Origin: a phage
Assembly: GCA_028473545.1 (NCBI GenBank)
Contig: GCA_028473545.1_4546.1
Length of the DNA: 45,074 bases
Reading direction: 5' to 3' (one strand)
Shown in pieces: positions 2,771-23,585 of the stretch. A model generated the notes under the pieces. The model was given only the letters and a program-made list of their open reading frames with translations, searched no databases and was not told where the DNA came from. How positions within the stretch are numbered: position 1 is the stretch's first letter; each line of letters begins with the position of its first letter. Both the position numbers and the translations under genes were made by a program.

Positions 2771-2852
2771 ATTTTGCGCGCATTGGTTGCCATTTTGAGT
2801 GTTTTTAGCTGGTCGCATTGGTTGCCGTGTAGTGTAAATATAGTGAATAGTT

Positions 2853-3058
2853 ATGCAGTTTTATTGCATAAAGTAAGCGGGACAAAAAGCGGGACAGACA
2901 GGGGCGGGACAAAGCGGGACAGCACCCCTGTCCCGCCCCGGATGGCGCGGCTTGCGGGGGAGCGGGACAGGCGGGACAAACCCCAGTCTTTCAGACTAGA
3001 CGGGGGTCAGTTGGCCCCCCTCGTCTGAGACTGCATAAAATCCGGGATTGCATAATGT
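2853..3058. repeat. Iteron module A: GCGGGACA octamer array, GC-rich hairpin and paired TGCATAA boxes
   Basis: Direct GCGGGACA copies at about 2877, 2889, 2904, 2914, 2962, 2971 and an inverted TGTCCCGC at about 2929; imperfect hairpin 2981-3033 (agacggggg..cccccctcgtct); TGCATAA pairs at 2853-2873 and 3036-3056. Noncoding. About 170 bp is near-identical to 20700-20870. Confidence 0.7.
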
Positions 3059-3185
3059 ACGGCAGCATGATGTGAATTGCTGTCGTCGACGAACTAGGCA
3101 ACCAATGCGTGTTGCAAAATGGAGAGTGAAAAATGCAGTTTGCAGTTACAGCGGATAGGGATCGGCTTTTTCATACGCGTGATTA

Positions 3186-3232
3186 ATATTGGTTGCATTC
3201 AGCCTGGCACCCTGCTAGATTGGTTGCACACC
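3186..3232 (+). promoter_or_regulatory. Promoter-like region with two ATTGGTTGCA boxes upstream of the 3250 gene
   Basis: ATTGGTTGCAT then 17-nt spacer then TAGATT, followed by a second ATTGGTTGCACACCAACAAGAGG directly before the RBS and ATG at 3250. Confidence 0.35.
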
Positions 3233-14944: not shown

Positions 14945-14975
14945 TTGGTGTGCAACCAATATAGTGCAACCAATA
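14945..14975 (-). promoter_or_regulatory. Tandem ATTGGTTGCA boxes in the divergent intergenic region
   Basis: On the minus strand ATTGGTTGCActatATTGGTTGCACACCAACAGAG lies immediately upstream of the island start codon; the last 18 nt match the leader of the 3250 gene. Confidence 0.4.
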
Positions 14976-19071: not shown

Positions 19072-19797
19072 ATGGGTTATCAACTTCCTAACGGGTCCAG
19101 CGTCCAGATTGGGTCCGTATTAGGCGCAGGCATCGCGGTTACGGCAGCTACCAACGCCACCGCGTCAATCTCCGACCTTACCACTGGTTGCGTTATTACC
19201 TGCGCGGAAGGCCACGGCCTGGCAGTAGGCGACGTGGTTATGTTCACTAAAACCCCGTGGGTCCGTGCGCTGAACCGCGCGTTCATCGTGGGTAAAGTGG
19301 CGACTAACGACGTGACGCTGGCGCGCTTCGACACCGAAGACGTCACCAAATATCCCACCGGCGCTTTTGGCGTAGGCACTCCGGGTGAAGTGGTGAAGGT
19401 GTCGAGCTTTATCGACTTCCCGTTTATCACTAACGTTGCCGTTTCTGGTGGCGACCAGCAGACGACTACCTTCCAGCCGTTGCAGGTTAACACCGCGATC
19501 AGTCTGAACACCACGAAAAACCCGTTGGTCCAGACTTACACCTTCACTCACGACGAAGAAGACCCGATCCGCCCTATCCTGGAAGACCTGGACGATACAC
19601 AGAAAACCACTGTTATTAAGTTCACGAACCCAGCGGCAGCAAGCGGAAAAGGTGAAATTCGTATTTACCCGGCTAAGGTATCTTTCCAGAAGATTCCGTC
19701 CGCTGAAGTAAACAACGTGGAAACGGTACAATCCACTCTGACCATGCAGTCTGATATGGTTATCTACCGTAAGGATCTGGTCGAGGCATTGTCTTGA
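19072..19797 (+). CDS. Major tail protein (putative)
   Basis: 241 aa; caggag RBS; followed by a strong terminator and the chaperone/tape-measure genes. Confidence 0.55.
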   Translation: MGYQLPNGSSVQIGSVLGAGIAVTAATNATASISDLTTGCVITCAEGHGLAVGDVVMFTKTPWVRALNRAFIVGKVATNDVTLARFDTEDVTKYPTGAFGVGTPGEVVKVSSFIDFPFITNVAVSGGDQQTTTFQPLQVNTAISLNTTKNPLVQTYTFTHDEEDPIRPILEDLDDTQKTTVIKFTNPAAASGKGEIRIYPAKVSFQKIPSAEVNNVETVQSTLTMQSDMVIYRKDLVEALS

Positions 19798-19825
19798 TTT
19801 GGTCGCTTAAATAGCGAGTGTTAAT

Positions 19826-19850
19826 ATGGGGCCTGCACGGCCCCTTTTTT
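19826..19850 (+). terminator. Rho-independent terminator after the major tail gene
   Basis: ggggcc..ggcccc stem followed by tttttt. Confidence 0.5.
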
Positions 19851-19866
19851 ATTGGAGAATATTACA

Positions 19867-20229
19867 ATGGCTAAAGCACCACTCTTCACACTTGACCCTA
19901 AGCCGACCTTTAAGCTGCCGATTGAGATCCCGCGCCCTGGTGAGAACGAACCAGGCAAGATGACGTTTACCGTCCGCCACCGCCCGATCGACGAGTTTTC
20001 GCAGACCATGCAGGACACCGAACGCAAGCTATCGGAATATGACGACAATGACCCTGACGGCTTTAACGTTATGGTTGAGGCCATCATGCACGTCGCTGAA
20101 GGCTGGAATCTGCCAGACCAATTTAACGCTGAGAACGTCCGCCGTCTGGTAGTCAACTACCCCCGTGCGTTCGGCGTGTTCCACACCTCGTACTACCTCG
20201 AATTGATGGGACTACGTGAAAAAAACTAA
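19867..20229 (+). CDS. Tail assembly chaperone (lambda gpG-like)
   Basis: ATG at 19867 with ggag RBS; 120 aa; ends at a slippery A_AAA_AAC site; lies upstream of the tape measure. Confidence 0.55.
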   Translation: MAKAPLFTLDPKPTFKLPIEIPRPGENEPGKMTFTVRHRPIDEFSQTMQDTERKLSEYDDNDPDGFNVMVEAIMHVAEGWNLPDQFNAENVRRLVVNYPRAFGVFHTSYYLELMGLREKN

Positions 20230-20543
20230 TTGAGGCGGCGCGACGCTTTTATGGCCCGCCGCCACCCTCCGAAGATGTAGCCGCAAGTTTATGGGGCGCG
20301 GCCCCCGAAGATGTTTGCCCGTCTGTTGCGCTATGGCCCGACAACGCGAAGATAGTCGCAGTCTTCACAGATTGCTCTACGCAATGGCGCACCGGATTCG
20401 GTGGGGCATACGGCATCGACTACGGAGTTCTGGAGTGGCTATTTAAGATGCACGGCATCGAAAACGAGCAACGTGCATTTAAAGATATAAAGCTAATGGA
20501 ACGGATCGCGCTTGACGAAATGGCGCAACAAAACCCCGCATAA
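20220..20543 (+). other. Putative -1 programmed frameshift extension (gpGT-like fusion)
   Basis: Slippery heptamer A_AAA_AAC at 20220-20226 in the last codons of the chaperone; the -1 frame is open for about 106 codons to TAA at 20541-20543 with no early ATG. Confidence 0.45.
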
Positions 20544-20544
20544 T

Positions 20545-20942
20545 GAAGCGGGACAAGCGGGACGTCCCGATCTGTCCCGTTTTGCCCCGCCCCCGGTAAA
20601 ACTGCATATCTACTCACTTTCATTGCATAAACTCAAAGCGGGACAAGCGGGACGTCCCGATCTGTCCCGCCCCCTAAATATGCATACCTATTCAGATTTC
20701 GTGCATAAAACAAACGGGACAAAAAGCGGGACAAACAAGGGGCGGGACAAAGCGGGACAGCACCCCGTCCCCGTCAGTGCTGCCGCGGGTTTCAGCCGAT
20801 CGGGACAGGCGGGACAACTCCCAGTCTTTCAGACTAGACGGGGGTCAATGGCCCCCCTCGTCTGAGACTGAATAAGGTTTGTTTGAAATTCGCTGATACA
20901 ATGTCAATCGGCAACTGCATAAAAAAAGGGGACTGCATAATG
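20545..20942. repeat. Iteron module B: GCGGGACA array with GGGACGTCCC palindromes, GC-rich hairpin and paired TGCATAA boxes
   Basis: Two 35-bp direct repeats (20546-20580, 20637-20671); GCGGGACA copies at about 20714-20759 and 20801-20816; hairpin 20819-20870; TGCATA(A) pairs at about 20602/20624, 20680/20703 and 20916/20934, the last overlapping the tape-measure ATG. Confidence 0.7.
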
Positions 20943-23585
20943 GCAGATCAAGCAGCAGGCATCACGCTAAAGGCGGATGTTGCACAAATCAGAACGGCGA
21001 ATACGGTGCTGGACTCATTCGCGCAGAAGTCCGAAAACACCGAAAACAAGGTCAAGAAATTAAACGACACCCTCGGCAACTCAAAAAAGGTGACGAGTGA
21101 CGCCGCGGGCGGAATGGGGAAGCTGGCAACTGAATCGCAGCGGGCCGCCGATGGCATGACGAAGCAGGAGCGACTTGCCAACCGCTTAGGCATGTCGACC
21201 AAAAACCTGGGCTTCGCATCGCGTAACGCCGCATTTCAGTTACAAGATATCGCGGTCACGCTCGAGATGGGTATGCCGGTGCACCGCGTCATGATTCAGC
21301 AGCTACCGCAGTTAACCGGGGCATTCGGTGGACTGGGTAACACGCTGCGTTATGTTGCTGGCTTTCTCGGTCCGGTAGGGATCGGCCTTGCTGCGGTAAC
21401 GGCAACGCTAGGCGTAGGCGTGGCTATTACGTCCCGCGCAGAAAACCAGGTAGCGGCGCTGAATAAGACGCTGGCGCTATCTGGTAACATCTCGGGCCTC
21501 ACCGCTAACCAGATCCTGGTGCTGTCGGAGAACGCCGAACGAATGGGCGGTTCATTCAGCAAGACGCGTGACACAATTCAGGCGCTGGCGGCGGCAGGTG
21601 TGAAAGCGGGTGCTGACTTCGGCGCGCTGGCGAAAGTAGTGAACGACTTCGCGAAGGTGTCTAATCAGCCGATCGCCGACGTGGTGGAGTCCATCTCCAA
21701 ATTGTCCAACGACCCGGTGGGCGGCTTGCGCGCACTGGCGGACAAGTATCACGTCGTTACCGAGGCGCAGATCCAGCAGGTGCAGTCACTGGTTACGACG
21801 GGTCGCGAAACCGAAGCGGTGGCGCTGGCGAACAAAACAGCCGCGGCGTCGTTCACCAGCATGACCAACGAGATCAAGTCCAACATGGGTACGCTTGAGC
21901 GGTCGATGAACGTCGTCACATCGGCAGCTAAATCTATGTGGGATGCCATCCTGGATGTGGGCCGCGCGCAGTCATCGAATGAGTCCGAGATGAAAGCGCG
22001 TGAGTCATTGCAGCGCATGACCACGGCTTACTATGCTGAGATGAAAGCGGTAAACGCTGCCGGTGGGGTAATGACCGACGCGCAGAAAGCACGTATTAAC
22101 ATGCTTTATAGCGAACTGGTCGCACAGGAAAAAGTAGTAGCGTCGCTCACCCTGCGTAACCGTGCCGAGCGCGACAACGCCAGCGCTGCGGACAAATCAG
22201 CGAAGGCGAACGAGGAGGCCAACCGCACCGCCCGTGACCGCGCCGCGTTCGAGAAGGAATTTGCCACCAACGCGAAGAAGCGCGCCGACGAGATCGCCCG
22301 CCTCAATTTACTGAATAAGCGCGGTGTGATTAACGAGAAAGAACTAGCCGAGGCGGTGAAGCAGGTCAACGAGCGCTACAAAGACCCCGCACCGAAAAAG
22401 GCGGCGGCAATTCGCGTCGATGCCGGTGTTAAAATGCTGGAGGTCGCGCGGAGCGAACTGGCACAGCTTAAGGAGTCCGGCAAGCAGATCGAAGCCAATG
22501 CCACAACGCAGACCCGCACGCAGCGCGCACAGGCCGCGTTGAATAAGCTGGTCGCGGATAATGAGCAAATGGTCGCAGCAAGCAAGGAACGCACACTAAC
22601 GGCAGCAGAAAAGCAGCAAATGGCAGAGTTCGAGGCGGTTAAAGCGGTACGCGAGCAGATCGTCGAAGAAGCCAAATTGCTGGACGCGAAAGAGAAGCAG
22701 ATCAAGGCACACGCCCAGGTCGAGGCATTCATCAAGAACCAGAACGCCGAGCTACGGGCCACCGCTGCGGGCTATGCGCTTTCCACTCGCGAAGCGGCTA
22801 ACCTGCGCGAAGAATTACAGCTAATTGACCGCCTTCAGCGTGTCGGCGCTAACGATACTGATATTGACCGGGCGGTGTCTAAGCTGCGCGAAGTGCAGGA
22901 AGCACAGACCGGTGCTAACGCTTCGTTGTGGGATGGCTTTAGCCGCGGGCTTAAGGATAGCGTGGATGAAATGGGGAACGGCTACACGCAGATGACGTCA
23001 CTCACAAAATTCACGTTCGGCGCTATGCAGGACACGATGAATACGTTTTTCGAGACGGGCAAGCTGAACGCAAAGGATATGGTTAAGTCCATCCTGAGCG
23101 AATTAATCAAGCTGGCTACCTCGCAGGCGTTCAAATCCATCGTTAGCGCTTTCGGCGGTGACGGCGGCAAAAACGGATTGTTCGGCGCTATCTTCTCGGG
23201 CCTCACTAAGAACGCAGACGGCGGAGCGTACGCAGGAGGCAATCTCGCGGCCTATTCTGGTCAAGTGGTAAGCCAGCCCACCTTTTTCAGTTATGGCGTT
23301 CAGGCGTTCGCTAAGGGCGCTGGGTTGATGGGTGAGGCTGGACCCGAGGCTATCATGCCACTGAAGCGCGGGCCGGATGGGAAACTGGGCGTTGCCGCTG
23401 CCGGTGCTGGTGGGGGTGGGATGATTGTAACAACCAACGTGAACATGGGTACCGGTAAGACGGACACCAGTGTGAGCGGACCGGACCCACGCACCGCGCA
23501 GGCGTTCGGAAAGCAAATCACCGAGTCGGTCAAGGCCGAGATCGTGAAAGCGACGAAACCGGGTGGAGTACTTTACAAACGATGA
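20940..23585 (+). CDS. Tape measure protein
   Basis: Start at MADQAAG with aagggga RBS; 881 aa; long helical protein; Gly-rich C-terminal region; position before the M/L/K/I/J-like genes. Confidence 0.8.
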   Translation: MADQAAGITLKADVAQIRTANTVLDSFAQKSENTENKVKKLNDTLGNSKKVTSDAAGGMGKLATESQRAADGMTKQERLANRLGMSTKNLGFASRNAAFQLQDIAVTLEMGMPVHRVMIQQLPQLTGAFGGLGNTLRYVAGFLGPVGIGLAAVTATLGVGVAITSRAENQVAALNKTLALSGNISGLTANQILVLSENAERMGGSFSKTRDTIQALAAAGVKAGADFGALAKVVNDFAKVSNQPIADVVESISKLSNDPVGGLRALADKYHVVTEAQIQQVQSLVTTGRETEAVALANKTAAASFTSMTNEIKSNMGTLERSMNVVTSAAKSMWDAILDVGRAQSSNESEMKARESLQRMTTAYYAEMKAVNAAGGVMTDAQKARINMLYSELVAQEKVVASLTLRNRAERDNASAADKSAKANEEANRTARDRAAFEKEFATNAKKRADEIARLNLLNKRGVINEKELAEAVKQVNERYKDPAPKKAAAIRVDAGVKMLEVARSELAQLKESGKQIEANATTQTRTQRAQAALNKLVADNEQMVAASKERTLTAAEKQQMAEFEAVKAVREQIVEEAKLLDAKEKQIKAHAQVEAFIKNQNAELRATAAGYALSTREAANLREELQLIDRLQRVGANDTDIDRAVSKLREVQEAQTGANASLWDGFSRGLKDSVDEMGNGYTQMTSLTKFTFGAMQDTMNTFFETGKLNAKDMVKSILSELIKLATSQAFKSIVSAFGGDGGKNGLFGAIFSGLTKNADGGAYAGGNLAAYSGQVVSQPTFFSYGVQAFAKGAGLMGEAGPEAIMPLKRGPDGKLGVAAAGAGGGGMIVTTNVNMGTGKTDTSVSGPDPRTAQAFGKQITESVKAEIVKATKPGGVLYKR

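What the first reader, a model, noticed from the sequence alone, without database searches (positions are those of the whole stretch)
20218..20543. Probable -1 programmed ribosomal frameshift producing a G-T-like tail chaperone fusion
The last codons of the chaperone gene contain the slippery heptamer A_AAA_AAC (20220-20226). The -1 frame is open from there for about 106 codons to 20543 and has no plausible independent start before 20448. This matches the conserved gpG/gpGT frameshift upstream of tape-measure genes in long-tailed phages. Unusually, about 400 bp of iteron DNA then separates the extension from the tape-measure start.
Basis: partly seen in the sequence, partly recalled or inferred. 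Interest (0 to 1): 0.55.

Follow-up and report, generated by a model that had tools for sequence, protein, structure and literature searches.

The report
Tail chaperone G/GT ribosomal frameshift site
This is the ordinary, expected programmed -1 ribosomal frameshift that lets a long-tailed phage (an E. coli Dhillonvirus) make a short and a long tail-assembly chaperone from one gene start; it is real and well conserved but not a new kind of thing.

Summary
The window is a Dhillonvirus (HK578-like E. coli siphophage). Gene G (19867-20229, Pfam Phage_TAC_4) ends ...GAA AAA AAC TAA. The -1 frame is closed by TGA at 20217-20219, opens at 20220 and runs to 20543. It encodes a DUF1799 domain and has no ATG/GTG/TTG before 20448. 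The permitted shift window is therefore 10 nt and consists of A_AAA_AAC plus the stop codon.

Evidence that the extension is translated from upstream:
- Purifying selection in that frame: 23/9/70 variable columns at codon positions 1/2/3.
- Homology starts at the first codon after the heptamer in relatives down to 35% identity.
- Of 105 distinct junctions in 16 lineages, 103 keep A_AAA_AAC or G_GGA_AAC directly before the stop.
- The heptamer occurs once on this strand in 45 kb.

Synonymous variation in G+T is lowest exactly over the slip site and a hairpin 7 nt downstream (20234-20263).

This is a new member of the known gpG/gpGT kind. It is not annotated as a joined gene in the six public records I inspected. 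The canonical junction peptide is REKN-LIEAARR, not REKK-L. The 396-bp non-coding gap before the tape-measure gene is real, specific to Dhillonviruses and partly duplicated at 2836-3040; its function is unknown.

The parts
19072..19797 (+). Major tail tube protein gene (241 aa), the upstream neighbour that defines the chaperone position
   Evidence: Pfam Phage_tail_3 PF08813, E=8e-33; PHROG 584 major tail protein, E=7e-75
19828..19853 (+). Intrinsic-terminator-like hairpin plus T-run between the tube gene and G
   Evidence: GGGGCCTGCACGGCCCC followed by TTTTTTATTG; annotated as terminator in phage CS16
19867..20229 (+). Gene G: tail assembly chaperone, 120 aa, 14.0 kDa, zero-frame product ending ...LREKN
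   Evidence: Pfam Phage_TAC_4 PF08748, 82.5 bits against a cut-off of 21.1, full length. GGAG lies 8 nt before the ATG. Variable columns 11/6/77 at codon positions 1/2/3 in 20 Dhillonvirus sequences
20220..20226 (+). Slippery heptamer A_AAA_AAC in X_XXY_YYZ phase of the G frame
   Evidence: Only + strand copy in the window. Conserved, or replaced by G_GGA_AAC, in all 105 distinct junctions
20227..20229 (+). Zero-frame stop codon TAA directly 3' of the heptamer; probably part of the signal
   Evidence: 103 of 105 junctions have TAA or TGA here. The overlapping T codon 1 is CTA/CTG in 103 of 105, against 56% CTR among CTN Leu codons elsewhere in T. T codon 2 varies (I, R, T, K) but always starts with A in those 103
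20234..20263 (+). Candidate stimulatory hairpin: GGCGGCG / CGCCGCC stem, 16-nt loop, 7-nt spacer after the heptamer
   Evidence: dG -17.1 kcal/mol. Among the lowest 0.5-5% of same-length windows in Dhillonvirus loci. Lowest synonymous variation of the whole G+T reading lies here: 2 of 12 third positions vary against 145 of 212 elsewhere, p=5e-4. Hairpins at the same spacing in L049, L072, L080, L119 and L133
20226..20543 (+). T extension: 105 codons plus TAA in the -1 frame; GT fusion predicted at 225 aa, 25.6 kDa
   Evidence: Pfam DUF1799 PF08809, 74.1 bits against a cut-off of 26. 0 stops in this frame against 3-8 in the others; 358 synonymous against 105 non-synonymous codon differences. 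No start codon before 20448
20544..20939 (.). 396-bp non-coding spacer. It holds two perfect 34-nt repeats (20546-79, 20636-69), (G)CGGGACA repeats, a strong hairpin at 20822-20870 and an invariant TGATACAAT about 35 nt before the tape-measure ATG. Context, not part of the frameshift signal
   Evidence: Indels among 18 Dhillonviruses are not multiples of 3
20940..23585 (+). Tape-measure protein gene (881 aa), the downstream neighbour
   Evidence: Pfam TMP_2 PF06791, E=6e-44, and Tape_meas_lam_C PF09718, E=1.5e-13

Best explanation
Most ribosomes translating gene G stop at TAA 20227 and release the 120-residue chaperone G. A small fraction slip back one base on A_AAA_AAC (20220-20226): tRNA-Lys re-pairs from AAA to AAA and tRNA-Asn from AAC to AAA. 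Those ribosomes then read CUA AUU GAG... in the -1 frame to 20543. The result is a 225-residue G-T fusion whose C-terminal DUF1799 domain has no other route to expression.

By analogy with lambda gpG/gpGT, G and the G part of GT would coat the tape-measure protein, and the T part would recruit the tail tube protein. The fixed low slip rate would set the GT:G ratio.

I propose that two elements next to the heptamer tune the rate:
- The zero-frame stop codon directly 3' of the heptamer. Slow termination with the stop in the A site gives the tRNAs on the heptamer time to slip. This predicts the junction K-N-L.
- The G+C-rich hairpin 7 nt downstream.

Shown here: the anatomy, the coding status of the -1 frame, the lack of a start codon, the conservation of heptamer plus stop, and the synonymous-site constraint. 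Inferred: that the fusion is made, its ratio, the roles of the stop and the hairpin, and the protein functions.
For: - Anatomy: a 10-nt overlap bounded by TGA 20217-19 (-1 frame) and TAA 20227-29 (zero frame) contains only the phased heptamer.
- Families: Phage_TAC_4 plus DUF1799, placed between the tube and tape-measure genes. PHROG 17368 covers both halves.
- Selection in the -1 frame: variable columns 23/9/70 at codon positions 1/2/3, and 358 synonymous against 105 non-synonymous codon differences. For the 74 codons before any start codon the split is 15/3/50.
- Comparative: in 45 plus 80 viral loci, T homology begins at residue 1, the codon overlapping the heptamer's C. Of 105 distinct junctions, 81 have AAAAAAC plus stop, 22 have GGGAAAC plus stop, and 2 keep the heptamer with a later stop. 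T1-like phage W011D has the same AAAAAAC TAA.
- Stop under selection: T codon 1 is CTR in 103 of 105, and T codon 2 is I, R, T or K, always starting with A in the 103 junctions that carry the stop.
- RNA element: the minimum of synonymous variation lies at G117-T13 (p=5e-4). A hairpin of -17 to -22 kcal/mol sits at a 7-nt spacer. It is kept through a G-U change in a relative with 58% identity in G.
- The heptamer is depleted genome-wide: 2 copies against 8.07 expected.
- Literature: the G-T frameshift is conserved in long-tailed phages, and A_AAA_AAC is a known but in E. coli modest -1 shift site (PMC5009743). The same 'AAAAAAC adjacent to the stop codon' was proposed for Acinetobacter phage Loki (PMC5313236).
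Against: - No protein or ribosome-profiling evidence is available for any Dhillonvirus, so production and ratio of GT are inferred.
- The hairpin alone is not exceptional against shuffles (z = -1.47).
- Its stem arms come from conserved Ala-Ala and Pro-Pro codons, so protein constraint is partly confounded with RNA constraint.
- The structure is weak or differently placed in about half of the lineages (median percentile 0.107).
- Webervirus relatives have GCA AAA GTT TAA without a canonical heptamer, so the family does not depend on one exact signal.
- No sequence similarity to lambda G or T, so the protein functions rest on position and on family names.
- The predicted fold of G was of modest confidence and matched nothing solved.
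Confidence: 0.9

Rival explanations
1. Transcriptional slippage. RNA polymerase adds one extra A in the A7 run (20219-20225), so a subset of mRNAs encodes G-T in a single frame, with junction ...REKK-LIE...
Against: - The run is only 6 A in several lineages (for example L049, L089, L129).
- It is absent in the 22 junctions that use G_GGA_AAC at the identical position.
- What is conserved is a phased ribosomal heptamer, not a homopolymer.
- From general knowledge, productive slippage by E. coli RNA polymerase usually needs runs of about 8-9 or more.
Confidence: 0.05
2. No recoding. The extension is expressed on its own from an internal start (ATG 20448, GGAG 12 nt upstream) as a peptide of about 31 aa, or by termination-reinitiation at the G stop. 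This is how several public annotations treat it.
For: Gene callers annotate 31-38 aa ORFs here (P0006). A GGAG lies 12 nt before ATG 20448.
Against: - The 74 codons upstream of 20448 are under clear purifying selection (15/3/50).
- They hold the most conserved motif of the family, TQWRTGFGG...DY.
- Homologues called as stand-alone proteins start at scattered positions.
- The codon after the G stop region in the T frame is ATT, ATA, ATC, AGG, AGA, ACA or AAA across lineages, so it is not a conserved start codon.
Confidence: 0.03
3. Artefact or decay. A homopolymer sequencing error, or a recent frameshift mutation, split a single G-T gene.
For: A-runs are error-prone in some sequencing chemistries.
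Against: - Identical two-frame arrangement in 149 or more independently sequenced phage genomes at 80-99% identity.
- The same arrangement in 103 of 105 distinct junctions from diverged lineages.
- No long single-frame fusions among the top 150 of 1070 cluster representatives.
- G always ends with a stop right after the heptamer.
Confidence: 0.01

Closest known systems
Phage lambda gpG / gpGT programmed -1 frameshift (Levin, Hendrix and Casjens 1993; Xu, Hendrix and Duda 2004, 2013, 2014; summarised in PMC5009743)
   Same: - Two overlapping ORFs between the major tail gene and the tape-measure gene.
- A canonical X_XXY_YYZ heptamer near the end of the first ORF.
- The second ORF is in the -1 frame without its own start.
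- Similar sizes: G 120 against 140 aa, T 105 against 144 aa.
   Different: - No detectable sequence similarity: BLASTP E=1.5 and 0.22, hhalign probability 0.6%.
- Different Pfam families (Phage_TAC_4 and DUF1799).
- The heptamer is A_AAA_AAC, not G_GGA_AAG.
- The zero-frame stop follows the heptamer directly, whereas in lambda it lies 5 codons later.
- Lambda T overlaps H by 8 nt; here 396 non-coding bp intervene.
Acinetobacter phage vB_AbaS_Loki gp12/gp13 (PMC5313236)
   Same: [quoted passage not shown] This is the same signal architecture. An Acinetobacter siphophage (Silvergun) is among the DUF1799 tblastn hits.
   Different: - Different host and genus.
- The paper reports an extra gene (gp14) between the chaperones and the tape measure, rather than a non-coding repeat region.
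- I did not check homology of Loki gp12/gp13 to this G/T.
T1-like Drexlerviridae 'tape measure chaperone' pair (for example vB_EcoS_W011D gp81/gp80)
   Same: - Homologous T domain, 36% identity.
- G ends ...GTA AAA AAC TAA.
- A strong hairpin lies 6 nt downstream.
- Also annotated as two separate genes.
   Different: The T stop is 42 nt from the tape-measure start, with no repeat module. The run is 6 A.
E. coli dnaX -1 frameshift (A_AAA_AAG, upstream Shine-Dalgarno-like element, downstream hairpin)
   Same: An A-rich lysine heptamer with a downstream G+C-rich hairpin at 6-7 nt.
   Different: - The last codon is AAC, which is less shift-prone in E. coli than AAG (PMC5009743).
- No conserved upstream Shine-Dalgarno-like element: the Gly codon in ATG GGN varies between A, G and C.
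- A stop codon follows the site in the zero frame rather than in the -1 frame.
- A low rate is expected, not about 50%.

Membership tests
gpG/gpGT-type tail assembly chaperone -1 frameshift (Xu, Hendrix and Duda 2004) | Two same-strand ORFs located between the major tail protein gene and the tape-measure gene | tested here: met
   Tube gene 19072-19797 (PF08813), G 19867-20229, T frame 20220-20543, tape measure 20940-23585 (PF06791, PF09718)
gpG/gpGT-type tail assembly chaperone -1 frameshift (Xu, Hendrix and Duda 2004) | Second ORF in the -1 frame, overlapping the 3' end of the first, with a slippery X_XXY_YYZ heptamer in phase inside the overlap | tested here: met
   10-nt overlap 20220-20229 holding A_AAA_AAC in phase
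gpG/gpGT-type tail assembly chaperone -1 frameshift (Xu, Hendrix and Duda 2004) | Second ORF lacks its own start yet is a real coding sequence | tested here: met
   No ATG/GTG/TTG from 20220 to 20447. Codons 1-74 show 15/3/50 variable columns at positions 1/2/3. DUF1799 at 74.1 bits
gpG/gpGT-type tail assembly chaperone -1 frameshift (Xu, Hendrix and Duda 2004) | The arrangement is conserved in diverged relatives even where the sequence is not | tested here: met
gpG/gpGT-type tail assembly chaperone -1 frameshift (Xu, Hendrix and Duda 2004) | A G-T fusion protein is made at a low fixed ratio to G, both are needed for tail assembly, and both are absent from virions | not testable with these tools
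   Needs western blot or mass spectrometry, reporter assays and phage genetics
Pfam Phage_TAC_4 (PF08748) | Score above the curated gathering threshold over the full profile | tested here: met
   82.5 bits against 21.1; residues 1-120 on profile positions 1-124 of 124
Pfam DUF1799 (PF08809) | Score above the curated gathering threshold | tested here: met
   74.1 bits against 26; residues 23-99 on profile positions 1-80 of 80
Lambda gpG / gpT sequence families | Detectable sequence homology to lambda G or T | tested here: not met
   BLASTP E=1.5 (G) and 0.22 (T); hhalign probability 0.6%. The relation to lambda is one of position and mechanism, not of demonstrable homology
Tail assembly chaperone fold of solved structures (Pell et al. 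2013, cited in PMC5313236) | Predicted structure of G matches a solved tail assembly chaperone | tested here: inconclusive
   AlphaFold2 on a 3-sequence alignment: pLDDT 67.6, pTM 0.60, a beta-hairpin plus four helices. Foldseek against PDB: no match with E<=0.001
dnaX-type stimulated -1 frameshift | Conserved upstream Shine-Dalgarno-like element about 10 nt 5' of the slip site | tested here: not met
   Only ATG GGN lies 9-14 nt upstream, and its third base varies between A, G and C among Dhillonviruses. No AGGAGG-like block
dnaX-type stimulated -1 frameshift | Downstream stem-loop 5-9 nt from the slip site that is under selection | tested here: inconclusive
   Present: 7-nt spacer and -17.1 kcal/mol, with a synonymous-site minimum, p=5e-4. 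But the stems are invariant, so there is no true covariation, they are confounded with Ala-Ala and Pro-Pro codons, and the hairpin is not universal in the family
Programmed transcriptional slippage | Long homopolymer run (about 8-9 or more A/T) conserved at the site | tested here: not met
   A7 here, A6 in several lineages, and no run in the G_GGA_AAC lineages

The most novel reading that the evidence does not exclude
In the large Phage_TAC_4/DUF1799 chaperone family (Dhillonvirus, T1-like Drexlerviridae and many uncultured siphophages), the -1 frameshift may be a conserved 'slippery heptamer plus shifty stop' signal. The zero-frame stop codon in the A site would be an obligatory part of the signal, so that release-factor kinetics, and therefore host physiology, set the GT:G ratio. 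In addition, Dhillonviruses have uncoupled the chaperone genes from the tape-measure gene by inserting a 396-bp control module (CGGGAC-repeat protein-binding sites, a processing or termination hairpin, and an extended -10 promoter). That module is duplicated next to the primase/helicase-like gene.
Probability: 0.3. Interest if true: 0.4.

Novelty: new member of a known kind. Interest (0 to 1): 0.2.

Why it matters
The main value is for annotation. None of the six Dhillonvirus and Drexlerviridae records I inspected joins G and T. Instead they list short 'hypothetical proteins' inside the T frame and even inside the non-coding spacer. The database of cluster representatives likewise holds about 1070 DUF1799 entries called as truncated stand-alone ORFs. 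A simple rule would correct hundreds of phage annotations and give DUF1799 a role: a Phage_TAC_4 gene ending in A_AAA_AAC or G_GGA_AAC plus a stop should be joined in the -1 frame to DUF1799.

Mechanistically, the near-invariant stop codation next to the heptamer offers a clean natural system to test whether termination kinetics help set a -1 frameshift rate in bacteria. TAA to TCA keeps the T-frame Leu, so the stop can be removed without changing the fusion protein. Otherwise the finding is what a phage biologist would expect at this position.

Tried and rejected
- Rfam, whole window at gathering thresholds and 20150-21000 at E<=1: nothing except chance matches of miRNA-precursor models to the inverted repeats.
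- PDB sequence search with the fusion: nothing. NCBIfam: nothing for G or T.
Foldseek against PDB found no match with E<=0.001, so the fold test is uninformative.
- The search for homologous proteins with the fusion returned only two G homologues.
- Upstream Shine-Dalgarno-like stimulator: considered and rejected, because the only G-rich block (ATG GGN) varies at its third base.
- Pseudoknot: I saw no obvious complement to the hairpin loop downstream by inspection. This was not tested formally.
- The hairpin judged by single-sequence shuffling is weak (z = -1.47 for 49 nt, -0.26 for 104 nt). I rely instead on synonymous-site conservation.
- Sigma-70 consensus scan of 19700-21000 found no promoter. 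The TGATACAAT extended -10-like box was seen by eye in the alignment.
- GC-skew profile gives no origin-like signal at either repeat cluster.
- Literature searches for Dhillonvirus or HK578 with 'frameshift', for DUF1799, and for Dhillonvirus with 'intergenic' and 'repeats' found no description of this site or of the repeat module.
- One script call returned no answer and was rerun.

Full report
**What the window is.** The 2.2 kb around the finding match 159 phage records. The best match is Escherichia phage vB_EcoS_WF5505 at 97.8% identity, and almost all matches are E. coli phages of the genus Dhillonvirus (HK578/JL1-like virulent siphophages of about 45 kb). Nothing matches in plasmids. The window length (45,074 bp) fits a whole genome of this genus.

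**Checking the observation.**
- The sequence reads ...CGT GAA AAA AAC TAA TTG AGG....
- The G ORF starts at ATG 19867, with GGAG 8 nt upstream, and ends with TAA at 20227-20229 (120 aa).
- In the -1 frame there is a TGA at 20217-20219. That frame is open only from 20220 and runs to the TAA at 20541-20543.
- It contains no ATG, GTG or TTG before 20448.
- The region in which a ribosome could pass from G into the long -1 ORF is therefore 10 nt: the heptamer A_AAA_AAC (20220-20226, in X_XXY_YYZ phase) plus the stop codon.
- The heptamer AAAAAAC occurs only twice in the whole window on both strands, against 8.07 expected. The only + strand copy is this one.

**What the two reading frames encode.**
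- G is a full-length match to Pfam Phage_TAC_4 (82.5 bits, cut-off 21.1).
- The 105-codon extension matches Pfam DUF1799 (74.1 bits, cut-off 26).
- The upstream gene is a Phage_tail_3 tube protein. The downstream 881-aa gene is a lambda-type tape-measure protein.
- In PHROGs one 213-position family (17368) matches G with its first half and the extension with its second half, so fused forms are on record.

**Is the extension really translated, and from upstream?**
- In 19 Dhillonvirus sequences the 315 nt have 102 variable columns, split 23/9/70 over codon positions 1/2/3 of the -1 frame.
- There are 358 synonymous against 105 non-synonymous codon differences, and no stops in this frame. The other two frames carry 3-8 stops each.
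- The 74 codons that precede the first possible start codon show the same signature (15/3/50).
- Those codons hold the family's most conserved motif, TQWRTGFGG..DY.
- A stand-alone peptide from ATG 20448, as several GenBank records annotate, cannot explain this.

**Comparative evidence.**
- Two scans of IMG/VR gave 45 and 80 loci that encode relatives of the extension at 97% down to 35% identity.
- In nearly all of them the tblastn match starts at residue 1 of the extension, which is the codon overlapping the last base of the heptamer.
- Over all loci there are 105 distinct junction sequences in 16 lineages (below 60% T identity): 81 have AAAAAAC followed directly by TAA or TGA, 22 have GGGAAAC followed directly by TAA or TGA, and 2 keep the phased heptamer with the stop a few codons later.
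- A T1-like phage (W011D, Drexlerviridae) has GTA AAA AAC TAA. A Webervirus has GCA AAA GTT TAA, which leaves only an A_AAA_G site.
- A tblastn search finds the T domain in 1146 phage records.
- A full HMMER scan finds 1070 cluster representatives. The top 150 are all short stand-alone calls (38-150 aa) with scattered N-termini, as expected when gene callers must invent a start.
- The exchange of one canonical heptamer for another at the same position is the classic signature of a ribosomal slip site. It argues against transcriptional slippage, because GGGAAAC has no homopolymer run and some A-type lineages have only six A.

**The stop codon appears to be part of the signal.**
- In 103 of 105 junctions the zero-frame stop follows the heptamer directly.
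- This requires the first T codon to be CTA or CTG and the second to begin with A.
- The first codon is CTG 67, CTA 36, CTC 1, CTT 1. Elsewhere in the same T ORFs only 56% of CTN leucine codons end in A or G, and CTA is the rarest.
- The second residue is not conserved as an amino acid (I 55, R 39, T 6, K 3) but always starts with A in those 103 junctions.
- In lambda the stop lies five codons after G_GGA_AAG.
- I infer that slow termination on the adjacent stop favours the slip of the two tRNAs sitting on the heptamer. Stimulation by a stop next to a shift site is an established idea: 'shifty stops', Weiss et al. 1987, is listed in PMC5009743, and the E/P-site model of Horsfield et al. 1995 I cite from memory. 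It is not shown for this site.

**A downstream RNA element.**
- Seven nt after the heptamer, GGCGGCG (20234-20240) can pair with CGCCGCC (20257-20263) around a 16-nt loop (-17.1 kcal/mol).
- Against shuffles this is unremarkable (z = -1.47). Compared with all same-length windows of the same loci it lies in the lowest 0.5-5% in Dhillonviruses.
- Equally placed strong hairpins with other sequences occur in L049, L072, L080 and L119. Across 79 distinct sequences the median percentile is 0.107, so the feature is common but not universal.
- The better argument is synonymous-site conservation. Over the whole G+T reading (225 codons, 12-codon windows), the minimum of third-position variability falls exactly on G117-T13. 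There 2 of 12 third positions vary, against 145 of 212 elsewhere (Fisher p = 5e-4). The two varying sites are the TAA/TGA position and a loop base.
- A relative with 58% identity in G keeps the heptamer, the stop and the stem through a C-to-U change that gives a G-U pair.
- I rate the hairpin as a probable but unproven stimulator. Its arms are Ala-Ala and Pro-Pro codons, so protein and RNA constraints are partly confounded.

**Mechanism and products.**
- Standard decoding gives G (120 aa, 14.0 kDa). The slip gives GT (225 aa, 25.6 kDa).
- A tandem slip, or a slip with the stop in the A site, predicts ...REKN-LIEAARR... (tryptic peptide NLIEAAR).
- A_AAA_AAC is reported to be much less shift-prone in E. 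coli than A_AAA_AAG (PMC5009743). This fits the low GT:G ratio that lambda needs, about 1:30 (same review).
- The protein roles (G coats the tape measure, T recruits the tube protein) are taken from lambda by analogy. There is no detectable sequence similarity to lambda G or T, and my structure prediction of G was too weak to test the fold.

**Comparison with what is known.** This is the conserved tail-chaperone frameshift of long-tailed phages (Levin 1993; Xu 2004; reviewed in PMC5009743). The very same 'AAAAAAC adjacent to the stop codon' was proposed for Acinetobacter phage Loki (PMC5313236). I found no paper describing it for Dhillonviruses or T1-like phages. None of the six records I inspected joins the two ORFs. 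It is therefore a new member of a known kind, and its main practical value is for annotation.

**The 396-bp spacer.**
In most relatives the T stop lies -11 to +36 nt from the tape-measure start. A few loci have gaps of 378-970 nt, whose content I did not examine. In all Dhillonviruses the gap is about 383 nt.
- The spacer is non-coding: indels among 18 phages are not multiples of three, and conservation is motif-like.
- It contains two perfect 34-nt repeats with a palindromic core CGGGACGTCCCG, further (G)CGGGACA repeats, TGCATAA boxes, and a strong hairpin at 20822-20870 (-28.4 kcal/mol, z = -3.6). The stems of that hairpin are invariant while its loop varies.
- It also holds an invariant TGATACAAT, which resembles an extended -10 box, about 35 nt before the tape-measure ATG.
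- About 200 nt of it (20672-20875) are duplicated at 82% identity at 2836-3040, just after a 754-aa AAA_25 primase/helicase-like gene.
- Whether this is an operator and promoter module, an RNA processing or termination site, or an origin is open. Rfam, GC skew and the literature gave nothing. It does not bear on the frameshift itself.

**Verdict.** Observation confirmed and interpretation supported. The frameshift is real with high confidence (0.9) but ordinary. The stop-adjacent architecture and the spacer module are the only mildly unusual aspects.

Noticed in passing
window 20544-20939 and 2836-3040: A non-coding module of about 200 nt is duplicated at 82% identity between the T-to-tape-measure spacer (20672-20875) and the region just after the 754-aa AAA_25 primase/helicase-like ORF (506-2770). 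It comprises a TGCATAAA box, 4-6 (G)CGGGACA direct repeats and a strong hairpin (20822-20870, -28.4 kcal/mol, z = -3.6) with invariant stems and a variable loop. The spacer also has two perfect 34-nt repeats (20546-79, 20636-69) with the palindrome CGGGACGTCCCG. GCGGGACA occurs 16 times in the window against 2.15 expected, 14 of them in these two clusters. Function unknown.
   Followed up: partly
window about 20896-20904: TGATACAAT, which resembles an extended -10 promoter element, is invariant in 18 Dhillonviruses about 35 nt upstream of the tape-measure ATG (20940). The tape-measure and distal tail genes may therefore have their own promoter, uncoupled from G/GT. The consensus promoter scan did not call it.
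   Followed up: no
window, 15 sites (2782, 2817, 3098, 3188, 3219, 3774, 6425, 14952, 14966, 30977, 33832, 35493, 35510, 38451, 45041): The 9-mer ATTGGTTGC occurs 15 times on both strands against 0.58 expected. Five copies cluster at 2782-3227 around the first CGGGAC cluster, and there are pairs at 14952/14966 and 35493/35510. It may be a dispersed regulatory or promoter-associated motif.
   Followed up: no
window 19828-19853: An intrinsic-terminator-like hairpin (GGGGCCTGCACGGCCCC plus a T-run) lies between the major tail tube gene and G. It would lower transcription of the chaperone genes relative to the tube gene.
   Followed up: partly
window, whole; 20220 and 33199: The slippery heptamer AAAAAAC is depleted genome-wide (2 copies on both strands against 8.07 expected). 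This is consistent with avoidance of accidental shift sites.
   Followed up: partly
L002 (Bas83) 1793-2377; L003 (CS16) 1928-2044; L051 (JL1) 1423-1518; L049 (W011D) 1252-1518; L050 (VAC10) 1145-1380: Public records annotate fragments of the T frame, and in Bas83 even parts of the non-coding spacer, as separate 'hypothetical proteins' or 'tail length tape measure protein'. None of the six inspected records joins G and T.
   Followed up: yes
L050 (Klebsiella phage vB_KpnS-VAC10) about 1050-1066: The Webervirus homologue ends GCA AAA GTT TAA. The second half of the heptamer is not slippery, leaving only an A_AAA_G single-tRNA slip site one codon before the stop. This large Klebsiella phage group may use a variant signal.
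   Followed up: no
window 3049-3075 and 20934-20942: The duplicated module ends in both copies with ...TGCATAA-N9/11-TGCATAATG. At 20940 the ATG starts the tape-measure gene. At 3055 it starts only a 6-codon mini-ORF (ATG TAC GGC AGC ATG ATG TGA).
   Followed up: no
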